NCBI GenBank assembly: GCA_963555825.3
Contig: CAUVXB020000002.1
Span: forward strand, 2,496,001 to 2,560,000
From: Alphaproteobacteria bacterium
GTDB lineage: Bacteria; Pseudomonadota; Alphaproteobacteria; JAAXGF01
Length of the DNA stretch: 64,000 bases
Direction of reading: 5' to 3'
Shown piece after piece: positions 49,114 to 64,000 of this stretch. Numbering within the stretch: position 1 is the stretch's first letter; the number at the start of each line of letters is the position of its first letter. The notes below the pieces were generated by a model. It ran no database searches. It saw only the letters and a list, made by a program, of their open reading frames with translations, and had not been told where the DNA came from. The position numbers and the translations under genes are program-made.

Positions 49114-49416
49114 ATGACCGACATCGATGCCACGCGCCGTGACCTGGTCGTGGCGTTCAATGCGAACCCGGGCGGCCCGCATAGCCCCGAGCTGCAGCGC
49201 CTGGTCAACAAGCTGCGCTTCGAGCCGACCATGAAAGGCAAATACGCGGTGGTCTGCACCAAACCGCACGAGGAATGGACGCTGGCGCAGCTTCCCGGCG
49301 AGCGCGGCAAACCAATTCGCATGCACGAGGACCGGGTCTTCACCAGCCTCGACGATGCCGAGCGGGCGATCTTCAAGCTGCGCTGGGAAGCGCATACCGG
49401 TGAGACGCTGGATTGA
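49114..49416 (+). CDS. dmfA1: N,N-dimethylformamidase small-subunit-like protein
   Basis: NPGGPHSPELQRLVNKLR...GKYAVVCTKPH..W...AIFKLRW; GAGGAG RBS; precedes the large subunit. Confidence 0.75.
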   Translation: MTDIDATRRDLVVAFNANPGGPHSPELQRLVNKLRFEPTMKGKYAVVCTKPHEEWTLAQLPGERGKPIRMHEDRVFTSLDDAERAIFKLRWEAHTGETLD

Positions 49417-49438
49417 CCGGCCGGGCGGAGGACGCGCT

Positions 49439-51652
49439 ATGAGATCACTCTTCGGCTACAGCGATCGCATCAGCGCCCGGCCGGGCGATACGATCAGCTT
49501 CATGGTCAGCAGCCTCGGTGGCACGCCCTACCGGGCCGACATCGTCCAGCTGATCTGCGGTGACGACAGCCCGGCGGGACCCGGCTTCAAGGAGACGGCC
49601 GTCGAGACGGCGATCAATGGCGACTACGAGGGCCGTGCGCAAGCGATCCACGACGGCTCGTATGTGACGGTGCCGCGCGCGCCAGTGCTCGATGGCATCA
49701 CCAGCTTCACCCTGCAGGCGATGGTTTGGCCGACGACGCCGGGCCGGGGCCGCCAAGCCATGCTCGGCAAGTGGCGCGACGACACCGGGGCCGGCTTCGG
49801 CCTGTATATCGACGAGGGTGGCGCTGCCGCGCTGCGCGTCGGCGACGGTTCCGGTCGCGTCGATGTCGTGAGCGTCGGGACCGCCATGGTCGCCCGGGAA
49901 TGGTACTTCGTCGCCGCGAGCTTCGATGCCGAGAGCCGCGAGATGCGCGTCTTTCAGGAACCGTTGGCCGACAGTCCCGGTGTCGGCGATGCGACGTCGG
50001 CCGACGCCACGGCGACGATCGACGGGGCGATGAAGAGCGACGCGCCGTTGCTCATGGCGGCGCAGAGCGCGGCGCCCGACGCGCCCGTCGGCGCCCACTA
50101 CAACGGCAAGCTCGACCGTCCCCGGCTGGCGAGCCGGGCGTTGTCGAGGGCCGAAATCGAGCGCCTGAAGGCGACGACGATACCGGGAGACTTGCGCGCC
50201 GACATCGTCGGCTGGTGGGATTTCTCGTGCGACATCGACGGCACGCGCGTCACCGATCGCTCGCCCAACCGGCTGCACGGCGAGACCGTCAATCTGCCGA
50301 CGCGCGGCATGCGGGGCTTCAACTGGACCGGCGACGAGCAGTGCTGGCGCCACGCGCCCGACGAGTACGGCGCCATCCACTTCCACGACGACGACCTCTA
50401 CGACGCCGGCTGGCAGGCCGACTTCGCGCTCACCGTGCCCGAGACGATGGCGAGCGGGGTCTACTGCGCACGCCTGATCGGCGCCGACGACGAGGAGCGC
50501 ATCCCGTTCTTCGTGCGCCCCGCGGCGGGCGCGCCGACGGCCGATGCGGTGCTGCTGATCTCGACCGCGACGTTCATGGCCTACGCCAACATGCAGTGGG
50601 ACATGAACACGATCTTCGCCGAGCCAAAGAAGGGCGCCATCACGGTGCTCAGCCCGGAGGATGTATTTCTTCAGGAGAACCCTGGCTATGGCCTCTCGCT
50701 CTACGACAAGCATGCCGACCAGTCGGGCGTCTGCTATTCGTCGCGGCTCCGGCCGATCTTCAACATGCGGCCAAGGACCGGGCTGTGGAGTTTCAACGCC
50801 GACACCCATGTCACCGACTGGCTCGCGACGATCGGCCAGGCCTACGACGTGGTCACCGACGAAGACCTCCACGCCGACGGCGTCGCGGCGCTGGCGCCCT
50901 ACTGCGTGGTGGTCACCGGCGCGCACCCCGAGTACTGGTCGACGCCGATGTGGCACGCGATGGTCGCCTATCAGCGCCGCGGCGGCCGGCTGATGTACCT
51001 CGGCGGCAACGGTTTCTACTGGCGCATCGCCTATCACGACACGCTGCCCGGCGTCATCGAGCTGCGCCGCGCCGAGGGCGGCATGCGCTACCAATCGACC
51101 GAGCCGGGCGAGTACTACCAAAGCTTCAACGGCGAGCTCGGCGGGTTGCGGCGCCGGGTCGGCACGCCGCCAAACACGCTGGTCGGCGCCGGCACGGTCG
51201 CGACCGGCTTCGATTCGGCGTCGTACTACCTGCGCACCGAGGCGAGCCACGATCCACGCGCGACGTTCATCTTCGAGGGCGTCGGCGACGACGAGCTGAT
51301 CGGCGACTTCGGCACGCTGCTCGGCGGCGCCGCGGGCGTCGAGCTCGACGGCGCCAACCGCAAGCTCGGCACGCCGCCGCACGCCCTCGTCGTGGCCCGC
51401 TCGGAGGGCCATTCGCAGCTCTACTTTCTGTGCCCCGAGGAGACGCCGTTCCACCACCCGGTGATGAGCGGCGCCGAGAACCCCCGGGTGCGCGCCGACC
51501 TGTTGTTCTACGAGACGTCACGCGGCGGCGGCGTGTTTACCACCGGCTCGATTTCGTGGTGCGCGGCGCTGGCGCATAACGGCTACGACAACAACGTCGC
51601 GCGCATCACCGGCAACGTGCTGAAGCGCTTCCTCGACCCCGCGCCGCTCTAG
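49439..51652 (+). CDS. dmfA2: N,N-dimethylformamidase large-subunit family protein
   Basis: GYSDRISARPG, LamG-like insert, GAIHFHDDDL, AYAN, SLYD.H, HPEYWS, YLGGNGFYW, GVELD. Confidence 0.88.
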   Translation: MRSLFGYSDRISARPGDTISFMVSSLGGTPYRADIVQLICGDDSPAGPGFKETAVETAINGDYEGRAQAIHDGSYVTVPRAPVLDGITSFTLQAMVWPTTPGRGRQAMLGKWRDDTGAGFGLYIDEGGAAALRVGDGSGRVDVVSVGTAMVAREWYFVAASFDAESREMRVFQEPLADSPGVGDATSADATATIDGAMKSDAPLLMAAQSAAPDAPVGAHYNGKLDRPRLASRALSRAEIERLKATTIPGDLRADIVGWWDFSCDIDGTRVTDRSPNRLHGETVNLPTRGMRGFNWTGDEQCWRHAPDEYGAIHFHDDDLYDAGWQADFALTVPETMASGVYCARLIGADDEERIPFFVRPAAGAPTADAVLLISTATFMAYANMQWDMNTIFAEPKKGAITVLSPEDVFLQENPGYGLSLYDKHADQSGVCYSSRLRPIFNMRPRTGLWSFNADTHVTDWLATIGQAYDVVTDEDLHADGVAALAPYCVVVTGAHPEYWSTPMWHAMVAYQRRGGRLMYLGGNGFYWRIAYHDTLPGVIELRRAEGGMRYQSTEPGEYYQSFNGELGGLRRRVGTPPNTLVGAGTVATGFDSASYYLRTEASHDPRATFIFEGVGDDELIGDFGTLLGGAAGVELDGANRKLGTPPHALVVARSEGHSQLYFLCPEETPFHHPVMSGAENPRVRADLLFYETSRGGGVFTTGSISWCAALAHNGYDNNVARITGNVLKRFLDPAPL

Positions 51653-51695
51653 CCGTTGCGCGCGACACTTTGGCGTGGATCGGAGGATAAGTCAG

Positions 51696-52064
51696 ATGTG
51701 GCAAGCGAAAGTCATCAAGGCCGAAGACGTCGTCTTCGAGGATCGCGTCGGACAGCATCCGGTGAAGACGCGCTTCGCGCGCATCGTCCGTCAGCCGCTG
51801 AGCGGCGGCCTCGGCTTCGGAATTTTGGAGGTCGACGACATCGACGCCGACTGGTTCATAAACTACGACGAGATATTCTACATCCTGGAGGGCAATTTCC
51901 GGGTCATCATCGGCGATGAGGTCTTCGAGGGTAACGCCGGCGACACCATCTTCCGGCCCAAGGATACGCAATTGCACTACGAATCGACCGGCAAGGCGAA
52001 ACTGCTCTACATCGTCCATCCCGAGGGGAACGTCCGCTGGCGGCTGCTCGTCGGCCGCGACTGA
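51696..52064 (+). CDS. Cupin domain protein (EutQ-like)
   Basis: YDEIFYILEG...AGDTIFRPK; GGAGG RBS. Confidence 0.8.
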   Translation: MWQAKVIKAEDVVFEDRVGQHPVKTRFARIVRQPLSGGLGFGILEVDDIDADWFINYDEIFYILEGNFRVIIGDEVFEGNAGDTIFRPKDTQLHYESTGKAKLLYIVHPEGNVRWRLLVGRD

Positions 52065-52096
52065 CCGAATTCGCCGACGGTGCGGACCTAGTCTCC

Positions 52097-52159
52097 TCAA
52101 TCGGGCATCGTGAAGGGGTCGGGGTCGAGGAAGCGGCGCACCAAGTTCTCGCTGACCTC
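52097..52159 (-). pseudogene. 3'-terminal remnant of a second DMFase large-subunit gene
   Basis: EVSENLVRRFLDPDPFTMPD* resembles ITGNVLKRFLDPAPL* at the end of 49439-51652. Confidence 0.6.
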
Positions 52160-52175
52160 AAGCGATCTCGTCTGA

Positions 52176-52313
52176 GATGTCGGGTTCCGAGCGATAAGCG
52201 GACCTAGCTCGCGCGGTATCGGAAAATCATGACGTGCACGTCCGCTCACGAGCGGGAAGCGGACCTCGCCGCTGAATCCGCTGGAGGTCTGCCTGTAGCC
52301 AGGACCGGACATT
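52176..52313. repeat. Cluster of three ~30-bp GTCCGC...GCGGAC hairpin repeats
   Basis: Units 52176-52205, 52237-52266, 52284-52313 with spacers of 31 and 17 bp. Confidence 0.75.
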
Positions 52314-52543
52314 AGGTGCTCCGTCACCAACAAGCCGTTGCCCGGCGCATCCTGCGGCCGCTTGACGATCTGCGAACGAGGCCACGTCCAGCATAGGCTG
52401 GTGAGACGGGTGGCAAGGTGAAAACGACGGGAGAGATGCGTCCGGATGGCGGAAAGTTGGGTCATCGGATGTCCGCCGGAGTATTACAGCCTCCTCTGGC
52501 GCCATGTGGTAGGATTCCAATGGATTCAAAGGTTATCTGATAA

Positions 52544-53365
52544 TTGGCGGCCGAAGGGGGCGGCATTTCGTTTACGCCAGACGCCATCGGCCTGATCGTG
52601 GCCGTCTTCATCGCCTCCGCCGTCGAGGTCGTCGAGGCCTTCACCATCGTGCTCGCCATGGGTATGAGCCGGGGCTGGCGTTCGGCGCTGGCGGGCACCG
52701 CGGCCGCGGTCGTCGTGCTGGCGCTGCTCGTCGCGCTCGCCGGCGTCGCGCTGCGCGACTATGTCAACGCGGCCTTCCTGCAATTCATCGTCGGCGCCCT
52801 GCTGCTCGTCTTCGGCCTGCAGTGGCTCAGAAAAGCGATGCTGCGCTCGGCCGGCTTGAAGGCGCTCCATGACGAGGACCTGATCTTCGCCGACGAAGTG
52901 GCGGCGGCCCGCGCCGCCGGCAGCGGTCAATTCTTCGGGCTCGACGCCTTCGGTTTCGTCGTCGCCTTCAAGGGCGTGTTGCTGGAAGGCATCGAGGTCG
53001 TCTTCATCGTCATCACCTTCGGGCTTGGGGCGGCCCACCGCGGCGTCCCCGACGCCATGTTGAGCGCGACGCTCGGCGCCGTGCTCGGCGCGCTGGTCGT
53101 CGTCGTCAGCGGCGTCGTCATCCGGCGCCCGCTGGCGATGGTGCCGGAGAACACGATGAAATACGCCGTCGGCCTGTTGCTCTCGAGCTTCGGCCTGTTC
53201 TGGGTCGTCGAGGGGTTGGGGTTCTTCGGCGCCGGCGGCGAGAGCCTGGCGTGGCCGGGCGGCACCTGGGCCCTGCCGGCGATCCTGCTCGCCTGGCTCG
53301 TCGTCACGCGGGCCACGGTGGCGATTCTGAAGCGCCTCGCACCCAGCCTGGCGGCATCGCCATGA
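52544..53365 (+). CDS. COG4280-type membrane protein (possible metal permease)
   Basis: Internal repeat VEVVEAFTIV / LLEGIEVVFIV; multiple TMs; TTG start. Confidence 0.75.
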   Translation: MAAEGGGISFTPDAIGLIVAVFIASAVEVVEAFTIVLAMGMSRGWRSALAGTAAAVVVLALLVALAGVALRDYVNAAFLQFIVGALLLVFGLQWLRKAMLRSAGLKALHDEDLIFADEVAAARAAGSGQFFGLDAFGFVVAFKGVLLEGIEVVFIVITFGLGAAHRGVPDAMLSATLGAVLGALVVVVSGVVIRRPLAMVPENTMKYAVGLLLSSFGLFWVVEGLGFFGAGGESLAWPGGTWALPAILLAWLVVTRATVAILKRLAPSLAASP

Positions 53366-53592
53366 GATGGCTCACTGCCCCTCTGAAGTTTATCTATGAT
53401 TTGGTCGTCGGCGACTCCTGGCCGCTCACGGCCGCCGTCGTGCTTATTCTAGGCGTGGGCGTGCTGGTCATGCGACTCGATGCGCTGCTGCCCACCACCC
53501 TCGTCTTAGCCATCGCCGCTGGCCTCCTCCTCGGCTCCCCCCTGACGATCCTGATCGAAGTAAAGAGACACCTGCGGCGCACCTCGGAATGA
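53362..53592 (+). CDS. Small 2-TM membrane protein coupled to the COG4280 gene
   Basis: MRWLTAPLKFIYDLVVGDSW...; ATGA overlap. Confidence 0.7.
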   Translation: MRWLTAPLKFIYDLVVGDSWPLTAAVVLILGVGVLVMRLDALLPTTLVLAIAAGLLLGSPLTILIEVKRHLRRTSE

Positions 53593-53731
53593 GCACAGAG
53601 CGGATGGCCCGACCTGATCGGAAAAGCCTCTAGCCCGGCCGTTCGACGCGTGTCAGGAAGGCATCCAACGCCAGGGACATGGTCACATAAACTAAGCCAA
53701 ACTACATCACGCGTGAGGGCCGCAATGGGTC

Positions 53732-55417
53732 CAGCCTGTGTGAGAACGTTTGCTGCTATTTCTGTGTGGCGCGTCTTTGGGTTTGGATGATCAGTCGGGA
53801 CGTGTTTTCCGGGATTATGGATTTTCGCCGCTCGTGCGGGCTTTTCGGCCGGCTGGCGCCGTTGTGAGCCGCGATGTGGCCGGGTATAGGCGTAATTGTC
53901 GGCGCAGGGGCGCCTATGCCGTCCTGATCGCCGCGATCAGCGGGTCGATGCCCATGATGTTCATGACGCGCTTGAGATTGTAGGCCAGCACGTGCAAGGC
54001 CATCTCGGTCCTCACCCGCTTCAGCGTCTTCATCTGGAAGTGCGTCGCGCCCATCCAGGCCTTGAGGGTGCCGAAGGGATGCTCGGCCGTCTCGCGCCGC
54101 CGACGCATCGCCTCCGGGTGCTCGTCGAGCCGCCTCTCGACGGCCTCGAGAATGTGTTCGTGCTGCCAACGGGTGATGCGGCGCTGCTTGGCCGTGGTGC
54201 AGCGATGCTTGATGGCGCATCCCTGACAGGCGTTGGTCCAGTAGCGCCGCATGCTCAGCCCCCTCTCCTGGCTGGTGAAGCGGTAGACCAAACGCTCGCC
54301 GGCCGGGCAGCGATAGACATCGTCGGCGGCCAGATAGACGAAGTCCTGTTTGCCGAAGCGGCCCTTGGCCTTGGCTCCAGAGGTCAGCGGCTTAGGCAAT
54401 GTGACGGTGATGCCGGCCTCATCGCAGGCCAGAATCTCCTTGCCGTTGTAGTAGCCGCGATCGGCAACGACATCCAACTCGTCGGTCTCCAGAGCCGCCT
54501 TGGTCCGCTTCGCCATGGCTGAGAGCTGGGCGCGGTCGGTGCCCTGATTGGTCACCTCGTGGGCGACGATCAGGTGGTGCTTGGTGTCGACGGCGGCCTG
54601 AACGTTGTAGCCGACCACGCCGGAACCCCGGCCGCTCGTCGCCATCGAGCGGGCATCGGGATCGCTCAGAGAGATCTGCTGGTCCGGGCTCGCACGCCGC
54701 TCGACTTCAAGCGCCTTCAGGCGCCGCATCTCCTCCTTGAGGATCGCGATCTTGTCGGCCAGACGAGTCGTCTTGGTCGTGCGCGCCAGCGACGGCTCTT
54801 GCCGGTCGGCGCTGTCCAACTGGTCCAGATAGCGCGCAACGCTCTCCTCGATCTGCGCCACCCGCCGCGCCATCTTGGCCCGCGTGAAGTTCCTGTCCCG
54901 GCTGTTGACCGCCTTGAACTTCGAGCCATCGATCGCCACGCTCGCCTCGGCGAACAGCCCGAGTTGCCGGCACAGCGCGACGAACCGAGCGCAGACCTTG
55001 CGGATCGCAGAACCGTTGTCCTTGGCCGAAGTCGGCGATCGTCTTGTGATCCGGCACCAGCCGACCGACCAGCCACATCACTTCGACGTTGCGCCCGGCC
55101 TCCCGTTCGAGCCGCCGGCTCGACTGAACCCGGTTCAGGTAGCCGTAGATGTAAAGTTTCAACATATCCGCGGGATGATAGCTCGGCCGGCCGGTCGCCA
55201 GCGGCTCGACCCGGTCGAACCCGAGGCCGCCAAGATCGAGCTCATCGACGAAGACGTCGATCGCCCGAACCGGGTTATCATCGCCGATCCAGTCTTCCAG
55301 GCGCTCCGGAAACAACGTGCCCTGGCTGCGATCGACACCCTCCACAAAACGCTTCATCAGACCCTCCCGCCAAAGCACGAGAGAATCATAACACCATCGA
55401 CGTTTTCACACAGGCTG
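53732..55417 (-). mobile_element. IS1182 family element with 4-bp GGTC target duplication
   Basis: TIR CAGCCTGTGTGAGAAC / GTTTTCACACAGGCTG; GGTC at 53728-53731 and 55418-55421. Confidence 0.92.
53914..55357 (-). pseudogene. IS1182 transposase, frameshifted at ~55025
   Basis: MKRFVEGVDR...PDHKTIADF| then KDN...AIDGSKFKA...EHPFGTLK in another frame. Confidence 0.9.
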
Positions 55418-55450
55418 GGTCATATGCAGACAACGGCGGCATGATCGCGC

Positions 55451-55480
55451 GGGGCCCGCTTCCGAGCGGTAACCGGATAA
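55451..55480. repeat. ~30-bp hairpin repeat unit following the IS1182-split unit (53715-53731 + 55422-55434)
   Basis: ggggcccgcttccgagcggtaaccggataa resembles the 52176 and 63977 units. Confidence 0.65.
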
Positions 55481-55587
55481 TCAGTGTGCCCGTCCCCGCA
55501 CCCGACCCGCAATCCATGCTATGTTTGCCGAAAGCGTGGGGAACTCATCCCAGGGACACGTCCGCTCAAATTAATCCCGGTTGGATA

Positions 55588-55770
55588 ATGTACATCACCA
55601 AGCCCAAGCCCAATTTCAGGCAGCGCAAGATGCGCGCTTGCTTAGGGCCGCACTGCAGGGGCAAGAACAAGTTGTTTCTCAGCGATCATCCCGGGCACCG
55701 GCTGTGCCCACGTTGCGCGGCCCAGGTAGAGAGCATCTCGCGCAGTTCAAGCGGGGCGACGGCCGCCTAA
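55588..55770 (+). CDS. Small Cys-rich putative zinc-ribbon protein (60 aa)
   Basis: RACLGPHC...F.S..PGHRLCPRC. Confidence 0.55.
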   Translation: MYITKPKPNFRQRKMRACLGPHCRGKNKLFLSDHPGHRLCPRCAAQVESISRSSSGATAA

Positions 55771-55806
55771 GCCAGCCCTTTCGGTCGGCCGGGTGGCGGG
55801 AATAGA

Positions 55807-55829
55807 AAGGCCCGCCGGGGGCGGGCCTT
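55807..55829. terminator. Hairpin terminator between convergent genes
   Basis: aaggcccgcc-ggg-ggcgggcctt. Confidence 0.65.
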
Positions 55830-55855
55830 CCATGGATTGTCGTCGTGTCGGTGCG

Positions 55856-56065
55856 TCAGTCGATGAGCTTGAGGTTCGCTGCCGCGGACTTGCCGTTCTG
55901 GCCACTCTGCAGTTCGTACTCGACGCGGTTGCCGTCGCTCAGGCCCATGAGCCCGGCGCGTTCGACGGCCGAGATATGGACGAAAGCGTCCTTCGAGCCG
56001 TCATCGGGGCTAATGAAGCCATAGCCCTTGACGGTGTTGAACCATTTCACGGTTCCTTGGGTCAT
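55856..56065 (-). CDS. cspA: Cold-shock protein
   Basis: GTVKWFN..KGYGFI, AFVHISA; AAGGA RBS. Confidence 0.96.
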   Translation of the reverse strand: MTQGTVKWFNTVKGYGFISPDDGSKDAFVHISAVERAGLMGLSDGNRVEYELQSGQNGKSAAANLKLID

Positions 56066-56371
56066 GTAGTCGTTCCTTGGACGTTGTGTTGCAACCGGCC
56101 GCGCCCTTTGCGCGGCCGAGTCTCAGCTCATCGAAATCCTTGGGGTATTGTGGCTAGGTCGGCGTGACGAAGCGGGATACGCCGGGCCTTCGAATACTGA
56201 TGGCGGTCATATAGCGTCGAACTCACAGGAATGCAATGGCGCCTGACGGGCGGTCTATACTGGCGCCCCGGTGTGAGAGCCGGCGACGGAGGTTTGCGAT
56301 GGCCTCCGCAAGGCGGGGCTCGACGTGTGAGCAACACCGGCAAGCTCATCGCGTTGCCAATGTCCGGTTAG

Positions 56372-58321
<1,950 letters not shown>

Positions 58322-58325
<4 letters not shown>

Positions 58326-58753
58326 CGCCGCGACCTCCGCCGCCCCAAAGGGCCGGACGTCTCCGTCTTGGCCTCCAGCAGTTCCACCTGCATGATCAAC
58401 TCCCCGATCCGCTTCATGGCGATGTCCAGTTCCGCCTTCACCGGATCGCCCTTGCGTTCCTTGAGCGAGGCATCGATCCCGGCGATCGCCTTCTCACGCC
58501 ACTGCTCGAGCCGGAAAATCTCCACGCCCAACTGCCGCGACAAAAGTTCCACCGGCTCGCCACGCAAAAGCCGCAGGGCAACCTCACGCTTGCGCGTCAC
58601 CGTCCACCGCTGGCCAAGTCCCAGCGGGCCTGCCGGCGAAACCTGGCCCGGGGAAAACGTGGACGAGCCAAGCTCGCCCTCGTTTACCACAGGCCCATCA
58701 ACAGCAACTTTGTTCTCAAAATTGTCGGTCATGTTCCGGTCCTCCTTGGACAC
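58322..58753 (-). CDS. Transposase OrfA (HTH + coiled coil)
   Basis: RWTVTRKREVALRLLRGE...LSRQLGV; ATGA overlap with OrfB; start may be ATG 58732. Confidence 0.85.
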
Positions 58754-59043
58754 TTCGATTAAGCCAATTCTGTGTCCAAGGAAATCGGGGCCGACTCACG
58801 AGGAGTTGAAGACGCTGAGGCACGTGCTCTACAACCGGTTCGAATTCTGAACGATTGGGAACCTTATTATGGTGTAAGCCGTGAGGCGCACTCGCTTACG
58901 ACGTTACTATCGGCTTCGTCCTCGCCGGGCAGTACCGCCCACTTTTCGGCAAGATCGCGCCGACTGGTCCAGTCCTCAAGCACTCCGCGATAGCTTCCGT
59001 GGGATAGCGCGCCGCGCTATGTGATCCGCGACCGGGGCAGCGT

Positions 59044-60084
59044 CTAGGGCACGGCGCCCGAGCCGCCCATCCGGTTGTCGATCAACACCTTGTCCATGTC
59101 GCGCATTATGACCTTCATGGTCTCCAGGTAGATGCGCCGCCTGGTGACGTCCTTCTGCTGCAGGTACTCCGCGTAGACCGACAGGAAGCGCTGCGGCTCG
59201 CCGGTGGCGATGGCGATCTTCTGCTCCTTGTAGCCCTCGGCCTCGTTGACGATCTTCTCGGCCTCGCCCTCGGCGCGCGCCACCACCTCGTTCAGGTAGG
59301 CCGTCGCCTCGTTGACCTTGCGCTCCTTGTCGGCGCGCGCCGCCTGGACGTCGCGGAAGGAGTCGAGCACGATGCCCGGCGGGTCGATCTTCTGGAGCTG
59401 CACGTCGGTCACGTCGATGCCGGAGCCGTATTGGTCGAGGATGCGCTGGACCAGCTCCTGCGCCTCGACCTCGATGCGGACGCGCCCCTGGGTGCGCGCG
59501 AACTCGAACCCGGACTTGCCGATGATCTCGCGCAGCGCGCTTTCCGAGGCGTCCTTCACCGTTCGGTCGGGGTTGCGGATGTTGAACAGGTACAGCCCGG
59601 CGTCCTTGATCCGCCAGAAGGTGACGAAGTTGACGTCGATGATGTTTTCGTCGCCGGTCAGCATCAGGCTTTCCCGGGGCACGCTGCGCACCAGTTCCGT
59701 GCGCCGCTCCTCGCCGCCCGAGGAAAAGCCTACTTCGGTGCGGTTGATACGCGTCACCTTCGGTCTCTGCACGTCGCCGATCGGCGTCGGCAGGTTGTAA
59801 TTGAGGCCCGGCTGGGTGGTGCCGACCCATGCGCCGAAGATCAGCGCGACGCCCTGTTCCTCGGGCTGCACCCGGTAGAACCCGGTGGCGAGCCAGCCGA
59901 GCAGCACGACGACGATGATGACCAAGATACCGCGCGCGCCGCCGACGCCGCCGGGGATCAGCCCGCGGACCCGGTCCTGGCCCTTGCGCAGCAGCTCCCC
60001 TAGGTCGGGTGGTTGCGGCCCCCGCGGGCCGCGGCCCCAGGGGCCCTGGCCGCCGCCCGGCCAGCCGCCTTGATTACCCGACAT
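59044..60084 (-). CDS. hflK: HflK (FtsH modulator) orphan copy, both ends altered, no hflC
   Basis: GPWG..PPDL, SPFH domain MLTGDENI, TRRRIYLETM; stops at GAVP* before the usual YLPL. Confidence 0.8.
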   Translation of the reverse strand: MSGNQGGWPGGGQGPWGRGPRGPQPPDLGELLRKGQDRVRGLIPGGVGGARGILVIIVVVLLGWLATGFYRVQPEEQGVALIFGAWVGTTQPGLNYNLPTPIGDVQRPKVTRINRTEVGFSSGGEERRTELVRSVPRESLMLTGDENIIDVNFVTFWRIKDAGLYLFNIRNPDRTVKDASESALREIIGKSGFEFARTQGRVRIEVEAQELVQRILDQYGSGIDVTDVQLQKIDPPGIVLDSFRDVQAARADKERKVNEATAYLNEVVARAEGEAEKIVNEAEGYKEQKIAIATGEPQRFLSVYAEYLQQKDVTRRRIYLETMKVIMRDMDKVLIDNRMGGSGAVP

Positions 60085-60335
60085 TTCCCATATATTCCCA
60101 GATAACCGTCATATCGACTCCGACAGTACCCAATTTTCACCGGTCATTGGAATCGTTTCACCTCCGCAGCCGTCTGACAGGCAGGTTTTGGTGAATTGAC
60201 CGGTGTTCGCAAGCCCATTTGGTCCAGTTTTTCGTCACCCAGACGCACCTCTCCCGTCAACCGACATGTTCCCAGGCTCCCGTTCAGCATCGTGGTGGTG
60301 GCCTTGGCCGCAGACCATCGATCAGGCGCGGGATT
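60078..60335 (-). mobile_element. Probable IS1380-family right-end remnant
   Basis: IPRLIDGLRPRPPPRC* (stop at 60284) and the end ...gggaaatgtcgg resemble IS1380 termini as I recall them. Confidence 0.55.
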
Positions 60336-60998
60336 TACCGGTAGGCCAGCACCGATTGCACGGGAGATGTGAGGGTGGGACCGGAGCCCAGAGTTTCCCG
60401 CAGGACTGTGGCGGGGACACTTCGAATTCTTGCCACTCCACGGCGGAGAGTGTAAGGTTCGACCGTAAGGGGTGCATCTCTACTCCCCTTGCCACAACGG
60501 TTTTCAAGAAACGACTCGCCGAGCGAACCGCATGGTCCGCCACGAATCAGCCGAGTGGAACCGTGTCTACGGGGTCTGGTCGCTGAAAGAATAGTCGGGA
60601 AGGGCAATCCCCGGAGGGGCTGCCTTCCCCCGTATTCGCGACATCACCGTTGTGCTTTCACGAAACTGCGGCCGCTCCGGCTCGTTCGTGCGAGCTACGC
60701 TCGATGCGTCGGTGCGTAGCGGTCGCGATCCCGGCACGAGGTGGGTTTGCGGCTCGGACTCACGGATACCAGACGATCCGTTTAGGCATTGGCTTTTTGG
60801 CTGGTGCGAACGGTGGAATATTGTAGGGTGTTCGCTGGCACCACTTTTATGCTGATTTCCACCCAATATCGCTGATGGAAGAATAGATCTAATATAATAT
60901 TCAATTTCGTCGAAGGTTTTTCCAATCATGTGAACTTCTTGTGTGCGGCATTTTAGACTTTTCCGGCGGAGCTCATTGCGTCTGAAGGAATGCGTTTC

Positions 60999-61619
60999 AT
61001 GTCAAGCAATGGAAACACAAAGACAACCACGGCACCCGAAAACTTCGAGGAAAAAGAATTCCTTTTGGGAGAGTACGAGGCACTTCGTGCGGAACAATTA
61101 CACAATTTTCGATCGGTTAATCAATTGCATGCGCTTCAAATAACTGCAACAAGAGCGTTCTTAGGCGTTGCATTTTCCATTACGCCACTAAACTCATATA
61201 TTTTCCTTTTACCAATTTTATTGTTAATTCCTATTGCTTATCGTTTACTAAATTATCCGTTAGCAATACTAAGAATAGGAACATATATTGAGGTGTTTAT
61301 CGAACCGAAATTTGCATCATTTGGATGGGAGCACAGGGTTGAAGATTTTTGAAGTTCAAATAATTTAAATAATAAACCTTTCATATTTCTTAAACTAAAA
61401 CTTGCAGTGCAAGACTATACCATATTAACTTCATGGGTAATAATTGTTATCTGCCCATCATTATCTTATATTTATTGGACAGATGAGTTGTGGTATTTGG
61501 TTGTGATCATTGCTTTGTCAGGGACGACTTTGATCCCGGTAAGTTACCGATTGTCCCGTCTTGGAAAGATCAGATCAGAATTCAAGGAAAGGTGGAATCA
61601 CCTTGGGGAACAAACATGA
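60999..61619 (+). pseudogene. Low-GC multi-TM membrane protein with one in-frame TGA (61350-61352)
   Basis: ORFs 60990-61352 and 61407-61619 share a frame with an open linker; EYEALRAE, RIGTYI; AT-rich. Confidence 0.65.
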
Positions 61620-61776
61620 AAAGAACGTCTCGCTACAAAGTTCCGCTCACAGTTCCCACAGTTCCGCAGACGGTATACCGATCTCGGAGTTTCCCGAGCG
61701 AACCGAGTCATGTTGAGCACGTTGCCAAACGGCACGGTCGCCTTTGAGAAGATAAGTGTACTGTCCCCGAAATTGA

Positions 61777-62184
61777 ATCATCGACGGTTGCGATGGCGAG
61801 ATCGCCCGGCTGAAACATTCCCAGAGCGAGTTCGGCGGCTGGTTCGACGCGGTCCTTGATCGGTATGCCGACGCCGTCCTGTTGTTCGGCCTGATGTGGC
61901 ACGAATTCGCTGCGACCGGCACGACCATATCCGTCGTGTTGGGGTTCGTGGCGATTGTAGGGTCGTTCCTAAACAGCTATACGGCGGACAAGTACGACGG
62001 ACTGATGGCTCGAAGGTTGCGAGGCGCCTCATACTTTCGGCTGGGCCGTGACGTTCGGGTTTTCGTCATCTTCCTTGGCGCCATCTTAAACCAGCCGCTA
62101 TTCACACTGCGTGTCGTTGCATTGGCGATGAATTTGGAAGTGGTTCGAAGGATCGTGATTTACAGGCGCGCTGCAGTGTTTTAG
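61777..62184 (+). pseudogene. 5'-truncated CDP-alcohol phosphatidyltransferase (DIPP synthase-like)
   Basis: IIDGCDGEIARLK...GGWFDAVLDRYAD signature right after an in-frame stop. Confidence 0.8.
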
Positions 62185-62346
62185 CGGGCGAATGCCTGCT
62201 CTATTCAGCAGGACGCTGCTCAAGCATGACCGCTACGCAGCGTCGCTACAATCGAACCGTCAGCGCGCCGCCAGACCCAACCGAACCCTGTTCAATTTTC
62301 CGAAGGCCTTCACGTGCCCCCAATGTCCTGTGTGGATGGCTCCCGC

Positions 62347-62591
62347 GTTGCAAGGACTTTTTTCGGCGTAGCGACCTAGTCAGGTACAGTCTTGTGTCCG
62401 GCCTGTTGATGCGGTTTTGTTGAACCGCTGGCCCTGATGGTATCCGTGGATCGGGTCCCTATCTGCTTAGCGGGCTCGAACACCCAGGACATTCGTCGGG
62501 TTGTCCCGATCCCCGGTCTGACCGGTTCGCCATCACGTCTCGTCGTCCTTGCAATCGTCGAAAGGCGTTGTGCCTTCGAGAGATCAATTGG
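62347..62591 (-). ncRNA. Putative bridge/seek RNA of the IS1111-type element
   Basis: Segments match the target (62488-62493, 62462-62468) and the donor junction (62436-62440, 62390-62397), each pair separated by a hairpin; RNA ends unknown. Confidence 0.75.
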
Positions 62592-63626
62592 TCATGCGGT
62601 CCCCTCAGTTGCGGGTCGGTGAGCGCGGTAGGCCTCGCCACGGGTCATGATGACCCAGGCGATCCGCGCGGCCTTGTTGGCCATGGCCACGGCGACCAGC
62701 TTGTTGGGCTTGCTTACCAGCAAGTTGGTGATCCAGGGGTGAACCTCGGGCTTGCGCCGTGCCGATTGAAGCTGTGATGTCATGCCGATCACCAGCAGAC
62801 GGCGAAGATAGCGGTCCGCCATCTTGGAGATGCGTCCCATGCGATCCTTGCCGGCGCTGGAATCGGCCTTGGGCGTTAGCCCGAGCGAGGCGGCAAACTG
62901 GCGAGCCGATGTGAACCGGTGCGGATCGGTGACCGAGGCCGCCAGCGCCGAGGCGGTGATGTAACCAATCCCCGGAATGGTCGCGAGCCGTTTGGCCAGG
63001 TCGTTGCCGCGGAACCAGGTCTTGATCTCGCCCTCGATCATGGCGACCCGGGCTTGCAACTCGCGGATCTGCTCGGCCAGGGCAATGACGATCTTGCATG
63101 CCAGCGGGGGAATGTCCGGCACCACTCCTTCGACAAGCTGATCGACGAGCCTCAGCGCGTGATGAATGCCTTTGGCCAGCACGATGCCCAACTCGGCCAG
63201 CTGGGACCGGATCATGTTGACCAGCTGGGTGCGCTGGCCGACCAGTAGATCCCGTGTTCGGTGGAGCGCCAGGACCGATTGCTGCTCGGCCGACTTGATC
63301 GCGACGAACCGCATCGTGGGGCGCGTCACCGCCTCGCAGATCGCCTCCGCATCGGCGGCGTCGGTCTTGCCGCGCTTGACGTATGGTTTGACGTAGATCG
63401 GTGGCATCAATTTCACCTCGTGCCCCAATGCCTGGAGCTCGCGGGACCAGAAGTGGCTCGTGCCGCACGCCTCGATACCGATCAGACACGGTTCCAGCTT
63501 GCCGAAGAACGGCATCATCTGGCGCCGGCGCAACGATCGGCGGACGATGACCTTGCCGGTGCTGTCAATGCCGTGGACTTGGAAAACGTTCTTGGCCAGA
63601 TCGAGGCCGACAGTGGTAACTTCCAT
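62592..63626 (-). CDS. IS110 DEDD recombinase, intact
   Basis: GLDLAK, IEAC, KTDAADA; C-terminal LGLTP..DSSAGK serine loop. Confidence 0.95.
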   Translation of the reverse strand: MEVTTVGLDLAKNVFQVHGIDSTGKVIVRRSLRRRQMMPFFGKLEPCLIGIEACGTSHFWSRELQALGHEVKLMPPIYVKPYVKRGKTDAADAEAICEAVTRPTMRFVAIKSAEQQSVLALHRTRDLLVGQRTQLVNMIRSQLAELGIVLAKGIHHALRLVDQLVEGVVPDIPPLACKIVIALAEQIRELQARVAMIEGEIKTWFRGNDLAKRLATIPGIGYITASALAASVTDPHRFTSARQFAASLGLTPKADSSAGKDRMGRISKMADRYLRRLLVIGMTSQLQSARRKPEVHPWITNLLVSKPNKLVAVAMANKAARIAWVIMTRGEAYRAHRPATEGTA

Positions 63627-63721
63627 GGCGGATAGCTCCTCTTGCTCGTGGTTGATAACAACCACCACTTTGGCATCTCGGTGCCGGGAGCGGGAGCCAT
63701 CCACCCCATCTGCTTCGGGTT

Positions 63722-63882
63722 CAGACTGTGTAAAAACGTCATTCAATTCAGTTTTTCGAGTAAATCTGCTTGATCCCTGAAGATTGCAGCCTGCTAAGTA
63801 ATTGGTTTCATAAACACTGAAAATTCAACGAATGGGCTGAGATCACATTTCGAGCGATTCTCCGACGTTTTTACACAGCCTG
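63722..63882. mobile_element. 161-bp non-autonomous IS1182-type MITE
   Basis: TIR CAGACTGTGTAAAAACGT / ACGTTTTTACACAGCCTG; flanks GGTT and GGTC. Confidence 0.85.
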
Positions 63883-63886
63883 GGTC

Positions 63887-64000
63887 AGGAGCAAACATTG
63901 CCGGCGTAGGCGCGCGGCGTCCGCTTTGTCGCGGGAAGCAGACATTAGTGGTCAACATTGGGATTTCCTCGCCGGCGGGGTCCGCTTCCGAGCAGACAGC
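63887..64000. repeat. Continuation of the ~30-bp hairpin repeat cluster
   Basis: ...aggagcaaacatt, ggcgtccgctttgtcgcgggaagcagacatt (63916-63946), ggggtccgcttccgagcagacagc (63977 to window end). Confidence 0.75.

What the first reader, a model, noticed from the sequence alone, without database searches (positions are those of the whole stretch)
52176..64000. Hairpin-repeat mini-arrays bracket cargo genes: candidate cassette system
Seen: three clusters of ~30-bp imperfect palindromes NNNGTCYGC-N12-GCRGACNNN with 16-17 or 30-31 bp spacers: 52176-52313; 53715-53731 joined to 55422-55480; and 62322-62327 joined to 63711-64000 once the IS are removed. The two clusters that follow + strand cargo begin with a unit whose loop is GGGTCA. 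The cluster preceding cargo ends with a TAGCCA-loop unit. The COG4280 two-gene module sits between such an end unit and a start unit. I saw these repeats only in the accessory island. Inference: polar recombination or cleavage sites of an integron-like or REPIN-like gene-capture system whose enzyme lies outside the window.
Basis: partly seen in the sequence, partly recalled or inferred. Interest (0 to 1): 0.75.

Follow-up and report, generated by a model that had tools for sequence, protein, structure and literature searches.

The report
Palindromic repeats used as IS landing pads
The hairpin clusters are copies of a dispersed non-coding palindromic repeat, of the REP/BIME kind, that several insertion sequences use as a preferred landing site, not the borders of a gene-cassette system.

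Summary
The repeats are real, but they are not confined to this island. The full unit is a polar mosaic of about 157-215 bp. It holds a palindrome with a GGGTCA loop (U1), two 25-nt hairpins GTCCGCTT-N9-AAGCGGAC spaced 61 bp apart (U2, U3), and a palindrome with a TAGCCA loop (U4).

A profile search finds 61 loci on both contigs. 60 of 61 lie outside confident gene calls, often just past a gene's 3' end. Related units occur in other genera, where they sit between ordinary genes.

In the window, three mobile elements sit inside U1 units:
- an IS1182-family element at 53732-55417, with target duplication GGTC;
- a 161-bp MITE derived from it at 63722-63882;
- an IS110-family element at 62328-63710.

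Genome-wide, 20 of the 28 IS1182 copies with that end intact abut an array, all in one orientation. A second IS1182-family element and its MITE use the TAGCCA loop. An 82-copy IS3 element shows no such link.

No integron integrase or Cas1 was found. The RAYT-like genes are not flanked by units. A 94% paralog of the COG4280 module has no flanking arrays. The cassette reading is therefore not supported.

One pattern remains unexplained: arrays cluster and are co-oriented (25 of 27 neighbouring pairs).

The parts
52097..52155 (-). Relic 3' end (last 19 codons and the stop) of a dimethylformamidase-beta-like paralog. It is cut exactly where array 1 begins.
   Evidence: 87% identical to window-equivalent 64199-64298. 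The intact 745-aa paralog ends ...SENVVRRFLDPDPFTMPD, and the relic ORF ends ...SENLVRRFLDPDPFTMPD.
52145..52318 (+). Array 1. U1 is reduced to its right arm GCTGAC. U2 is at 52179-52203, U3 at 52240-52264, and the complete U4 (GTCTGC-CTG-TAGCCA-GGA-CCGGAC) at 52284-52313.
   Evidence: Covariance model 126 bits, E 5e-25; nhmmer 1e-23; sequence read. Logan contigs of three other studies cover 52114-52603 or a part of it with 0-1 differences (table 8).
52544..53592 (+). The two-gene module between array 1 and array 2: a 273-aa OFeT_1/GDT1-like membrane protein (52544-53365) and a 75-aa ORF (53365-53592). These are neighbours of the arrays, not part of the repeat.
   Evidence: Pfam. Paralog of 52486-53612 at 94% identity at C2:2394190-2395316, without flanking arrays.
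53715..53731 (+). Left arm and left part of the loop of the U1 unit of array 2 (GGCCGC-AAT-GGGTC). Its last four bases, GGTC, are the left copy of the target duplication.
   Evidence: The same junction ..GTCYGC-NNN-GGGTC|IS is seen at most copies.
53732..55417 (-). IS1182-family insertion sequence (1686 bp) with ends CAGCCTGTGTGAGAACG.. and ..CGTTTTCACACAGGCTG. In this copy the transposase is split into two frames (341 aa and 223 aa), against 487 aa in other copies.
   Evidence: Pfam DUF772, DDE_Tnp_1_6 and DDE_Tnp_1. Plasmid records annotate relatives as IS1182 family. 28 copies of at least 90% length. Flanks.
55418..55488 (+). Array 2, truncated after U2. GGTCA-TAT-GCAGAC is the right half of U1 and carries the right GGTC copy. 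It is followed by a linker and U2 at 55454-55478.
   Evidence: nhmmer model positions 1-71, E 6e-9; covariance model 52 bits. 98% identical over 60 nt to C1:766838-766897.
62322..62327 (+). AATGTC, the first part of the left arm of the U1 unit of array 3.
62328..63710 (-). IS110-family element (1383 bp) encoding a 344-aa DEDD transposase, with an 84-nt 5' and a 264-nt 3' non-coding region. It is inserted in the arm AATGTC^YGCT.
   Evidence: Pfam DEDD_Tnp_IS110 and Transposase_20. All five full copies sit at AATGTC|..|TG(C/T). The 3' non-coding region holds CGAATGTC and TAAGCAGA, which match the two target halves.
63711..63721 (+). The rest of the U1 left arm and loop (TGCTTCGGGTT) of array 3.
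63722..63882 (.). 161-bp MITE with the same terminal inverted repeats as the IS1182-family element (CAGACTGTGTAAAAACG .. CGTTTTTACACAGCCTG), inserted in the GGGTCA loop.
   Evidence: Inverted repeat I9. Its ends match the IS ends. Five further loci have the same IR next to U1 without a full IS.
63883..64000 (+). Array 3: right half of U1 (GGTCA-GGA-GCAAAC), U2 at 63919-63943, and U3 starting at 63979. It is cut by the window end and continues to 64039 in the genome.
   Evidence: Covariance model 63 bits in the window and 119 bits for the full copy.

Best explanation
The clusters are copies of a dispersed, non-coding, extragenic mosaic repeat of the REP/BIME kind.

A full copy reads T_G (palindrome AATGTCYGC-NNN-GGGTCA-NNN-GCRGAC), linker, hairpin, 36-nt spacer, hairpin, linker, T_A (GTCYGC-NNN-TAGCCA-NNN-GCRGACATT). 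Its outer parts are inverted copies of each other, so the whole can fold into one long imperfect hairpin. Half copies (one end palindrome plus one hairpin) also occur. These usually sit just past a gene's 3' end with the hairpin nearest the gene.

The end palindromes are preferred, orientation-specific insertion sites for the genome's mobile elements:
- One IS1182-family element and its MITE cut the GGGTCA loop and duplicate GGTC.
- A second IS1182-family element and its 160-bp MITE cut the TAGCCA loop and duplicate AGCC.
- Two IS110-family elements insert in an arm or a loop. At least one probably uses a guide RNA that matches the arm.

Repeated nested insertion turns these sites into IS nests. 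This makes the arrays look as if they bracket 'cargo'.

Shown: the repeat family and its extragenic position, the insertion junctions and target duplications, the specificity compared with IS3, and the presence of the family in other genera.

Inferred: recognition of the palindrome by the transposases, RNA guidance of the IS110 element, any role of the repeat in the host (3'-UTR hairpins), and how the repeat itself spreads.
For: Family and extent:
- The refined unit gives 75 genome hits against 2 in the reversed-genome control.
- nhmmer gives 70 hits, which reduce to 61 loci on both contigs.
- 60 of 61 loci do not overlap confident gene calls, which cover about 63% of the genome.
- By my count, checked against, 10-11 of 15 3'-half copies lie within about 160 nt behind a co-directional gene. 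10-11 of 17 5'-half copies lie within about 100 nt of a convergent gene.

Insertion sites:
- Of 30 IS1182 copies over 1400 bp, 28 keep the end next to the array. 20 of those 28 have an array profile hit that starts at the IS end on the same strand, and 22 of 28 have the GCRGAC arm at the expected spot.
- Left flanks carry only ..ATGTCYGC-NNN-GGGTC, and right flanks start with GGTCA.
- Unoccupied U1 units exist in this genome (for example C2:2930211, C1:946615, C2:3440148) and in G001. They carry a single GGGTCA, so GGTC is a target duplication.
- 25 of 43 loci with U1 have an IS1182-type end in it, and 7 of 34 loci with U4 hold the second MITE.
- That MITE and its 452-aa IS1182-family parent (C2:1011458-1013037) follow TAGCC.
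- All five IS110 copies sit at AATGTC^YGC.

Specificity control: an exact half site lies within 25 nt of 19 of 28 IS1182 copies and 4 of 82 IS3 copies. Random places give 5.5%.

Other genera: full arrays in G029 (140 bits) and G004 (108 bits), and a 96-nt one-hairpin form T_G-H-T_A in G001.

Literature:
- REP sequences are known targets of IS of five families (PMC1525189, passages read).
- IS1182-family members are reported to target palindromes and hairpins (PMC5678879 and PMC4923244, passages read).
Against: - No covariation supports the hairpins. About 81-82% of cells pair in either the local-hairpin or the long-hairpin model, which is no more than in column shuffles. Selection for structure is therefore not shown.
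- How the repeat itself multiplies is unknown. No RAYT gene is flanked by units.
- The strong clustering is not predicted by a simple REP model. 77% of loci have a neighbour within 15 kb, against 26% for random placement. 25 of 27 neighbouring pairs are co-oriented (binomial p 6e-6). Only about three of those pairs are trivial: one split array and two tandem or overlapping cases.
- 8 of 28 IS1182 copies show no array at their end.
- My gene calls come from a home-made GC3 rule, not from a validated gene finder.
- The orientation test looked only for the one arrangement. One copy (C1:499827) sits in a TAGCCA unit at the other side of an array.
Confidence: 0.8

Rival explanations
1. REPIN-RAYT type system. 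In this reading the arrays are non-autonomous elements copied through single-stranded DNA by one of the genome's RAYT-like Y1 (HUH) transposases acting in trans. Strand-specific insertion relative to replication would then explain the local co-orientation. This rival concerns how the repeat spreads. It is compatible with the arrays also being IS targets.
For: - The genome has three Y1_Tnp genes above the Pfam cut-off.
- The array is an overall imperfect palindrome built from two inverted half modules, and half copies also exist.
- The two ends carry distinct, conserved loops, as the ends of HUH-mobilised elements do. That comparison is recalled, not tested here.
- Array orientation is opposite to the local GC skew in 24 of 32 clusters with 50-kb windows (p 0.007).
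Against: - None of the three Y1 genes has a GTCYGC-type unit within about 1.5 kb. Only chance-level matches at 1 mismatch were seen, and no array hit lies within 20 kb.
- The skew bias is weak and depends on window size: 22 of 32 at 25 kb and 20 of 32 at 100 kb.
- In G001, four of five contigs whose units all lie on the + strand have positive skew, the opposite trend.
- The two inner hairpins are direct repeats, not inverted ones.
Confidence: 0.12
2. One reading: an integron-like gene-capture system. TAGCCA and GGGTCA units would be polar recombination sites that bracket mobile gene cassettes, served by a recombinase encoded elsewhere.
For: - At least 9 clusters read [..U3-U4(TAGCCA)] - 2-13 kb - [U1(GGGTCA)-U2..] in one orientation.
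- 25 of 27 neighbouring arrays are co-oriented.
- Several gene-sized segments near arrays have 88-94% paralogs elsewhere in the genome.
- Units on one contig of G001 are co-oriented (7 of 7 neighbouring pairs by my count from the strong hits).
Against: - No integron integrase: the best match is 79 bits against a cut-off of 265.
- The content between arrays is mostly transposases of many IS families.
- The COG4280 paralog has no arrays at its borders, and paralog borders do not coincide with unit borders.
- In G001 the genes between units are ordinary operons of both orientations.
- Contigs from four other studies show array 1 and its junctions unchanged.
Confidence: 0.04
3. The arrays are part of the IS1182-type element (long sub-terminal structures carried along on transposition), or they are orphan mini-CRISPR arrays (25-nt repeats with 36-nt spacers).
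For: - The array is attached to the same IS end in 20 of 28 copies. Two copies share a 98% identical 60-nt flank.
- The repeat and spacer sizes resemble CRISPR dimensions.
Against: - 18 of 43 U1-bearing loci have no IS1182-type end.
- G001 units are unoccupied.
- The U1 left arm lies on the far side of the IS.
- The spacers fall into three conserved subfamilies rather than being unique.
- No Cas1 in the genome, and no Rfam family hit.
Confidence: 0.02

Closest known systems
REP / BIME elements of enterobacteria and pseudomonads as IS targets (Tobes and Pareja 2006, PMC1525189; IS1397, ISPpu9/10, ISPa11, ISRm19/22)
   Same: Short imperfect palindromes in mosaic clusters, extragenic and often at 3' ends of genes, with tens of copies. 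IS of several families, including IS110, insert inside the palindrome, so that joining the flanks rebuilds it.
   Different: The sequence is unrelated. The mosaic is fixed and polar, with two distinct end palindromes conserved across genera. The main user is an IS1182-family element, a family not among the five listed in that paper. Copy number is modest (61 loci). No REP-flanked RAYT was found.
REPINs (inverted REP doublets mobilised by RAYT; recalled from Bertels and Rainey 2011, not read here)
   Same: Two inverted half modules separated by a short spacer, able to form one long hairpin. Single half copies look like decayed remnants.
   Different: The inner hairpin loops are in direct orientation. 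The three Y1 genes are not flanked by units. No evidence of recent replication of the repeat itself.
Br-REP1 of Bradyrhizobium (PMC5082802, passages read)
   Same: An alphaproteobacterial repeat made of three palindromes in 3' UTRs, about 200 intergenic sites, with abundance varying strongly between relatives.
   Different: A different consensus (CCGGAATCTCGAGATTCCGG). No IS targeting is described in the passages I read.
IS1272 / TnSha1 (IS1182 family) hairpin targeting in staphylococci (PMC5678879, PMC4923244, passages read)
   Same: IS1182-family transposases choose inverted-repeat or hairpin targets, often terminators.
   Different: In staphylococci the target has no sequence consensus, the hairpin is deleted or replaced, and no target duplication arises. 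Here the site is a specific repeated palindrome, the cut is in its loop, 4 bp are duplicated and the orientation is fixed.
Integron attC sites and gene cassettes
   Same: Imperfect palindromes with polarity that lie between genes in co-oriented series.
   Different: No IntI. No one-gene, co-oriented cassettes. The intervening DNA is mostly IS. A paralogous 'cargo' lacks the sites. In a relative the units sit among ordinary operons.

Membership tests
REP/BIME-type extragenic palindromic repeats | Short imperfect palindromes repeated many times in one genome | tested here: met
   75 hits of the 25-nt unit against 2 in the control. 61 array loci.
REP/BIME-type extragenic palindromic repeats | Extragenic position, typically near 3' ends of genes | tested here: met
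   60 of 61 loci lie outside confident gene calls that cover about 63% of the genome. About two thirds of half copies lie within 160 nt of a gene's 3' end. Gene calls come from my own GC3 rule.
REP/BIME-type extragenic palindromic repeats | Mosaic combination of palindromes with conserved linkers | tested here: met
   The order U1-linker-U2-spacer-U3-linker-U4 is conserved in 20 aligned copies, with three spacer subfamilies.
REPIN/RAYT system | A RAYT (Y1 transposase) gene flanked by the same REPs | tested here: not met
   Three Y1_Tnp genes. None has a unit nearby beyond chance-level matches at 1 mismatch, and no array hit lies within 20 kb.
REPIN/RAYT system | Two REPs in inverted orientation forming a hairpin | tested here: inconclusive
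   The outer halves are inverted, and minimum-free-energy folds pair them in many copies (z from -4.7 to +1.4). The inner loops are direct, and no covariation was found.
Integron (attC / cassette array) | An integron integrase IntI | tested here: not met
   For TIGR02249 the best match is 79 bits against a cut-off of 265.
Integron (attC / cassette array) | Single, mostly co-oriented promoterless genes, each followed by a site | tested here: not met
   The content between arrays is mostly IS. In G001 it is operons of both orientations.
CRISPR array | Unique spacers and cas genes | tested here: not met
   Spacers are conserved in three subfamilies. No Cas1.
IS1182 family (element 53732-55417) | DDE transposase with DUF772 and DDE_Tnp_1_6 domains, terminal inverted repeats, about 1.3-1.95 kb | tested here: met
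   Pfam; relatives annotated as IS1182 family; inverted ends and 1686 bp. The size range is recalled from ISfinder.
IS110 family (element 62328-63710) | DEDD_Tnp_IS110 plus Transposase_20 domains, specific target, long non-coding region that encodes a guide RNA | tested here: met
   Domains. One target for all five copies. A 264-nt 3' non-coding region holds two 8-mers that match the target halves. Whether it makes an RNA was not tested, and no Rfam match was found.

The most novel reading that the evidence does not exclude
The T_G...T_A-bounded elements could be more than passive targets. They may be polar sites of a strand-specific mobilisation or recombination process, run by a RAYT-like Y1 enzyme or by IS1182-family transposases acting in trans. 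Such a process would lay them down in co-oriented series around genes, and could move the DNA between a TAGCCA unit and the next GGGTCA unit. That would be a REP-based gene-bracketing system conserved across genera.
Probability: 0.06. Interest if true: 0.75.

Novelty: new member of a known kind. Interest (0 to 1): 0.35.

Why it matters
It explains the layout of this IS-laden genome. A single family of about 60 palindromic repeats channels where most IS1182- and IS110-type insertions go, which spares genes and builds IS nests.

It also gives a clean natural example of three things:
- IS1182-family elements with loop-specific, orientation-specific insertion into a defined repeat.
- Two related transposons that divide the two end palindromes of one repeat between them.
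- An IS110 element whose non-coding region appears to match a REP-like arm.

For annotation, it warns that such arrays beside variable DNA are not cassette borders.

Tried and rejected
- Tandem Repeats Finder does not report the arrays.
- Rfam at E up to 1 over 50000-64000 gives only two chance hits, neither on an array.
- RNAalifold on 20 copies finds only two 3-bp inner helices and no compensatory pairs.
- Counting pairs for the local hairpins and for the long hairpin shows no excess over shuffles.
- An exact degenerate U2 pattern in genome contigs returned only 18 loci in a few alphaproteobacterial and other MAGs. This says little about distribution.
- Earlier notes of this scan returned nothing.
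- Logan contigs of four studies laid on 50000-64000 show no listed joint that removes an IS or an array. Contigs break at repeat borders, and 76 joints were not shown, so absence of empty sites or circles cannot be concluded.
- The flanks of the COG4280 paralog show no units.
- TnpB-type domain: a single locus at C1:1306059, not followed up.
- 45 tyrosine-recombinase matches in the genome. By comparing their places with the array list, one broken copy (C1:766046-766543) lies about 200 nt from an array and I saw no other beside one.
- GC-skew explanation of the co-orientation: weak and dependent on window size.
- My looser gene-calling rule produced spurious calls, for example the ORF 52097-52465 across array 1. 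It was used only for the gene-strand count.
Full report
OBSERVATION

The window is G000:C2:2496001-2560000 of a 6.04-Mb genome with 65% G+C, held as two contigs.

The refined inner unit GTCCGCTT-N9-AAGCGGAC is strongly enriched in the genome. It gives 75 hits at up to 2 mismatches against 2 in the reversed genome, on both contigs, and many hits come in pairs exactly 61 bp apart.

Printing those pairs with their flanks and aligning copies gives the full element:
- U1, or T_G: AATGTCYGC-NNN-GGGTCA-NNN-GCRGAC.
- A linker of about 22 nt.
- U2, a 25-nt hairpin.
- A 36-nt spacer, which falls into three subfamilies.
- U3, a second 25-nt hairpin.
- A linker of about 24 nt.
- U4, or T_A: GTCYGC-NNN-TAGCCA-NNN-GCRGACATT.

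A covariance model of 20 copies finds three + strand copies in the window, at 52145-52299, 55418-55535 (truncated after U2) and 63883-64000 (cut by the window end). Nothing else in the window scores above 16.9 bits.

WHAT INTERRUPTS THE UNITS

The element at 53732-55417 is an IS1182-family element. Pfam gives DUF772, DDE_Tnp_1_6 and DDE_Tnp_1, and relatives on plasmids are annotated as IS1182 family. In this copy the transposase is split into two frames.

The genome holds 30 copies over 1400 bp. In nearly all of them the left flank ends ..ATGTCYGC-NNN-GGGTC and the right flank begins GGTCA-NNN-GCAGAC, followed by the rest of an array. Of the 28 copies that keep that end, 20 have an nhmmer array hit that starts at the IS end on the same strand. 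22 have the arm at the expected place.

Unoccupied U1 units carry a single GGGTCA, both in this genome and in the relative G001. GGTC is therefore a 4-bp target duplication.

The element at 63722-63882 is a 161-bp MITE with the same inverted ends, sitting in the same loop position.

The element at 62328-63710 is an IS110-family element. All five full copies sit at AATGTC^YGC, the left arm of a unit. Its 264-nt 3' non-coding region contains CGAATGTC and TAAGCAGA about 20 nt apart. One matches the target left of the insertion point on one strand, and the other matches the target right of it on the other strand. This fits the guide logic of bridge and seekRNAs. I know that logic from memory; of PMC11208160 and PMC11187229 I saw only the search listing and the start of the abstracts. 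Short matches of this kind are only mildly unlikely by chance, so this step is an inference.

A second 160-bp MITE, with ends GAGGCTGTTGAAAAAGTC, and its 452-aa IS1182-family parent at C2:1011458-1013037 follow TAGCC of U4-type units with an AGCC duplication. A second IS110 type interrupts U4 loops.

In all, 25 of 43 loci that include U1 carry an IS1182-type end, and 7 of 34 that include U4 carry the second MITE.

The link is specific. An exact half site lies within 25 nt of 19 of 28 IS1182 copies but of only 4 of 82 copies of the IS3 element at 57379-58800. The random level is 5.5%.

WHERE THE ARRAYS LIE

nhmmer gives 70 hits, which reduce to 61 loci on both contigs. 60 of the 61 do not overlap confident gene calls, although those calls cover about 63% of the genome. 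The gene calls come from a GC3 rule of my own, which is a weakness.

About eleven loci are 5' halves (U1 plus U2) and about nine are 3' halves (U3 plus U4). By my count, about two thirds of these lie within 100-160 nt of a gene's 3' end, with the hairpin nearest the gene.

Array 1 abuts a relic. 52097-52155 holds the last 19 codons of a dimethylformamidase-like paralog whose intact copy lies just beyond the window end. A rearrangement therefore ended at U1 there.

TESTS OF THE CASSETTE IDEA

- The genome has no integron integrase above the cut-off and no Cas1.
- Three RAYT-like Y1 genes exist but are not flanked by units.
- The arrays match no Rfam family.
- The COG4280 module between array 1 and array 2 has a 94% paralog at C2:2394190-2395316 with no units at its borders.
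- Genes between clustered arrays are mainly transposases of the IS1182, IS3, IS110, IS630, IS256, IS4-like and Mu-like kinds, with a few ordinary genes. The outer neighbours are ordinary metabolic genes.
- Relatives also carry the element. Full arrays occur in G029 (another family, 140 bits) and G004. G001 has at least 18 copies of a 96-nt form T_G-linker-hairpin-linker-T_A, none occupied by an IS in the copies I read.
- On five G001 contigs the units lie between ordinary genes and operons of both orientations. These include an ABC transporter operon, aminotransferase, IspA, a protease, amidases and aconitase-like genes, with no transposase.
- Logan contigs from four other studies carry array 1 and its junctions with 0-1 differences. 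They show no variant, but contigs cannot prove that none exists.

STRUCTURE

Single-sequence folds often pair the left half with the right half into one long hairpin, with z from -4.7 to +1.4 against mononucleotide shuffles. On the alignment, neither the local hairpins nor the long hairpin shows more pairing or covariation than column shuffles. The palindromy is conserved sequence. Selection for an RNA or DNA structure is not shown.

WHAT REMAINS UNEXPLAINED

The arrays cluster. 77% have a neighbour within 15 kb, against 26% for random placement. 25 of 27 neighbouring pairs are co-oriented (p 6e-6). Only about three of those pairs are trivial.

G001 shows the same co-orientation on contigs with several units.

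Orientation is opposite to the local GC skew in 24 of 32 clusters at 50 kb. The figure is only 22 at 25 kb and 20 at 100 kb, and G001 contigs do not follow the trend. A replication-strand bias is therefore possible but unproven. This pattern is the main reason to keep a small probability for a more active role of the units.

COMPARISON WITH KNOWN SYSTEMS

- The behaviour matches REP sequences as IS targets, described for five IS families (PMC1525189, passages read; its supplementary PDFs were not seen).
- It also matches the hairpin preference reported for IS1182-family elements (PMC5678879 and PMC4923244, passages read). Here, though, the site is sequence-specific, the cut is in the loop, 4 bp are duplicated and the orientation is fixed.
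- Br-REP1 of Bradyrhizobium is an analogous three-palindrome repeat in 3' UTRs with a different sequence (PMC5082802, passages read).
- My three literature searches and the passages I read showed no description of this consensus. That is a narrow search, not proof that it is unpublished.

VERDICT

This is a new sequence family of a known kind of element, and the window shows a textbook case of it being used as a landing pad. The cassette interpretation is not supported.

Noticed in passing
window 57379-58800 (- strand) and genome-wide: An IS3-family element (143-aa orfA and 303-aa orfB) is present in 82 copies of at least 90% length. The genome is extremely IS-rich, with at least eight IS families near the arrays.
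   Followed up: partly
window 52486-53612, 56378-57378, 59045-60329, 61777-62194: Gene-sized segments have 88-94% identical paralogs elsewhere: at C2:2394190, C2:3156224, C2:3190401 and C1:2241778, and C2:37738. The borders of these paralogs do not coincide with repeat units.
   Followed up: partly
window 55427-55774 and G000:C2:1506486-1506820: The truncated array 2, the 74-codon ORF 55581-55805 and its upstream region recur at 83% identity. The second copy also lies behind an IS1182 copy.
   Followed up: no
window 62328-62591 (3' non-coding region of the IS110 element, - strand): Two 8-mers, CGAATGTC and TAAGCAGA, lie about 20 nt apart around a small stem and match the two halves of the element's insertion site. 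This may be a seekRNA or bridge-RNA guide.
   Followed up: partly
61 array loci of G000; G001 contigs C170, C119, C130, C104, C285: Arrays are clustered, and 25 of 27 neighbouring pairs are co-oriented. I have no firm explanation. The link to GC skew is weak.
   Followed up: partly
window 49355-51652; 52097-52155; genome just beyond the window end (about 64240-66480, - strand): There are two dimethylformamidase-beta-like paralogs, 55% identical as proteins. A 19-codon relic of a third copy is fused to array 1.
   Followed up: partly
window 51600-53731 in public runs: Near-identical DNA (82-99% of sampled words) occurs in runs of eight studies, among them sponge metagenomes. Only three holders are on record as RNA, each with a small share of the words.
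   Followed up: no
G000:C1:28173-30732: Two inverted copies of about 110 nt of an array flank a 2.3-kb segment with identical outer ends (..GTTTTTCAACAGAATTA|GGTCA..). This is probably another IS whose insertion or long inverted ends involve U1.
   Followed up: no
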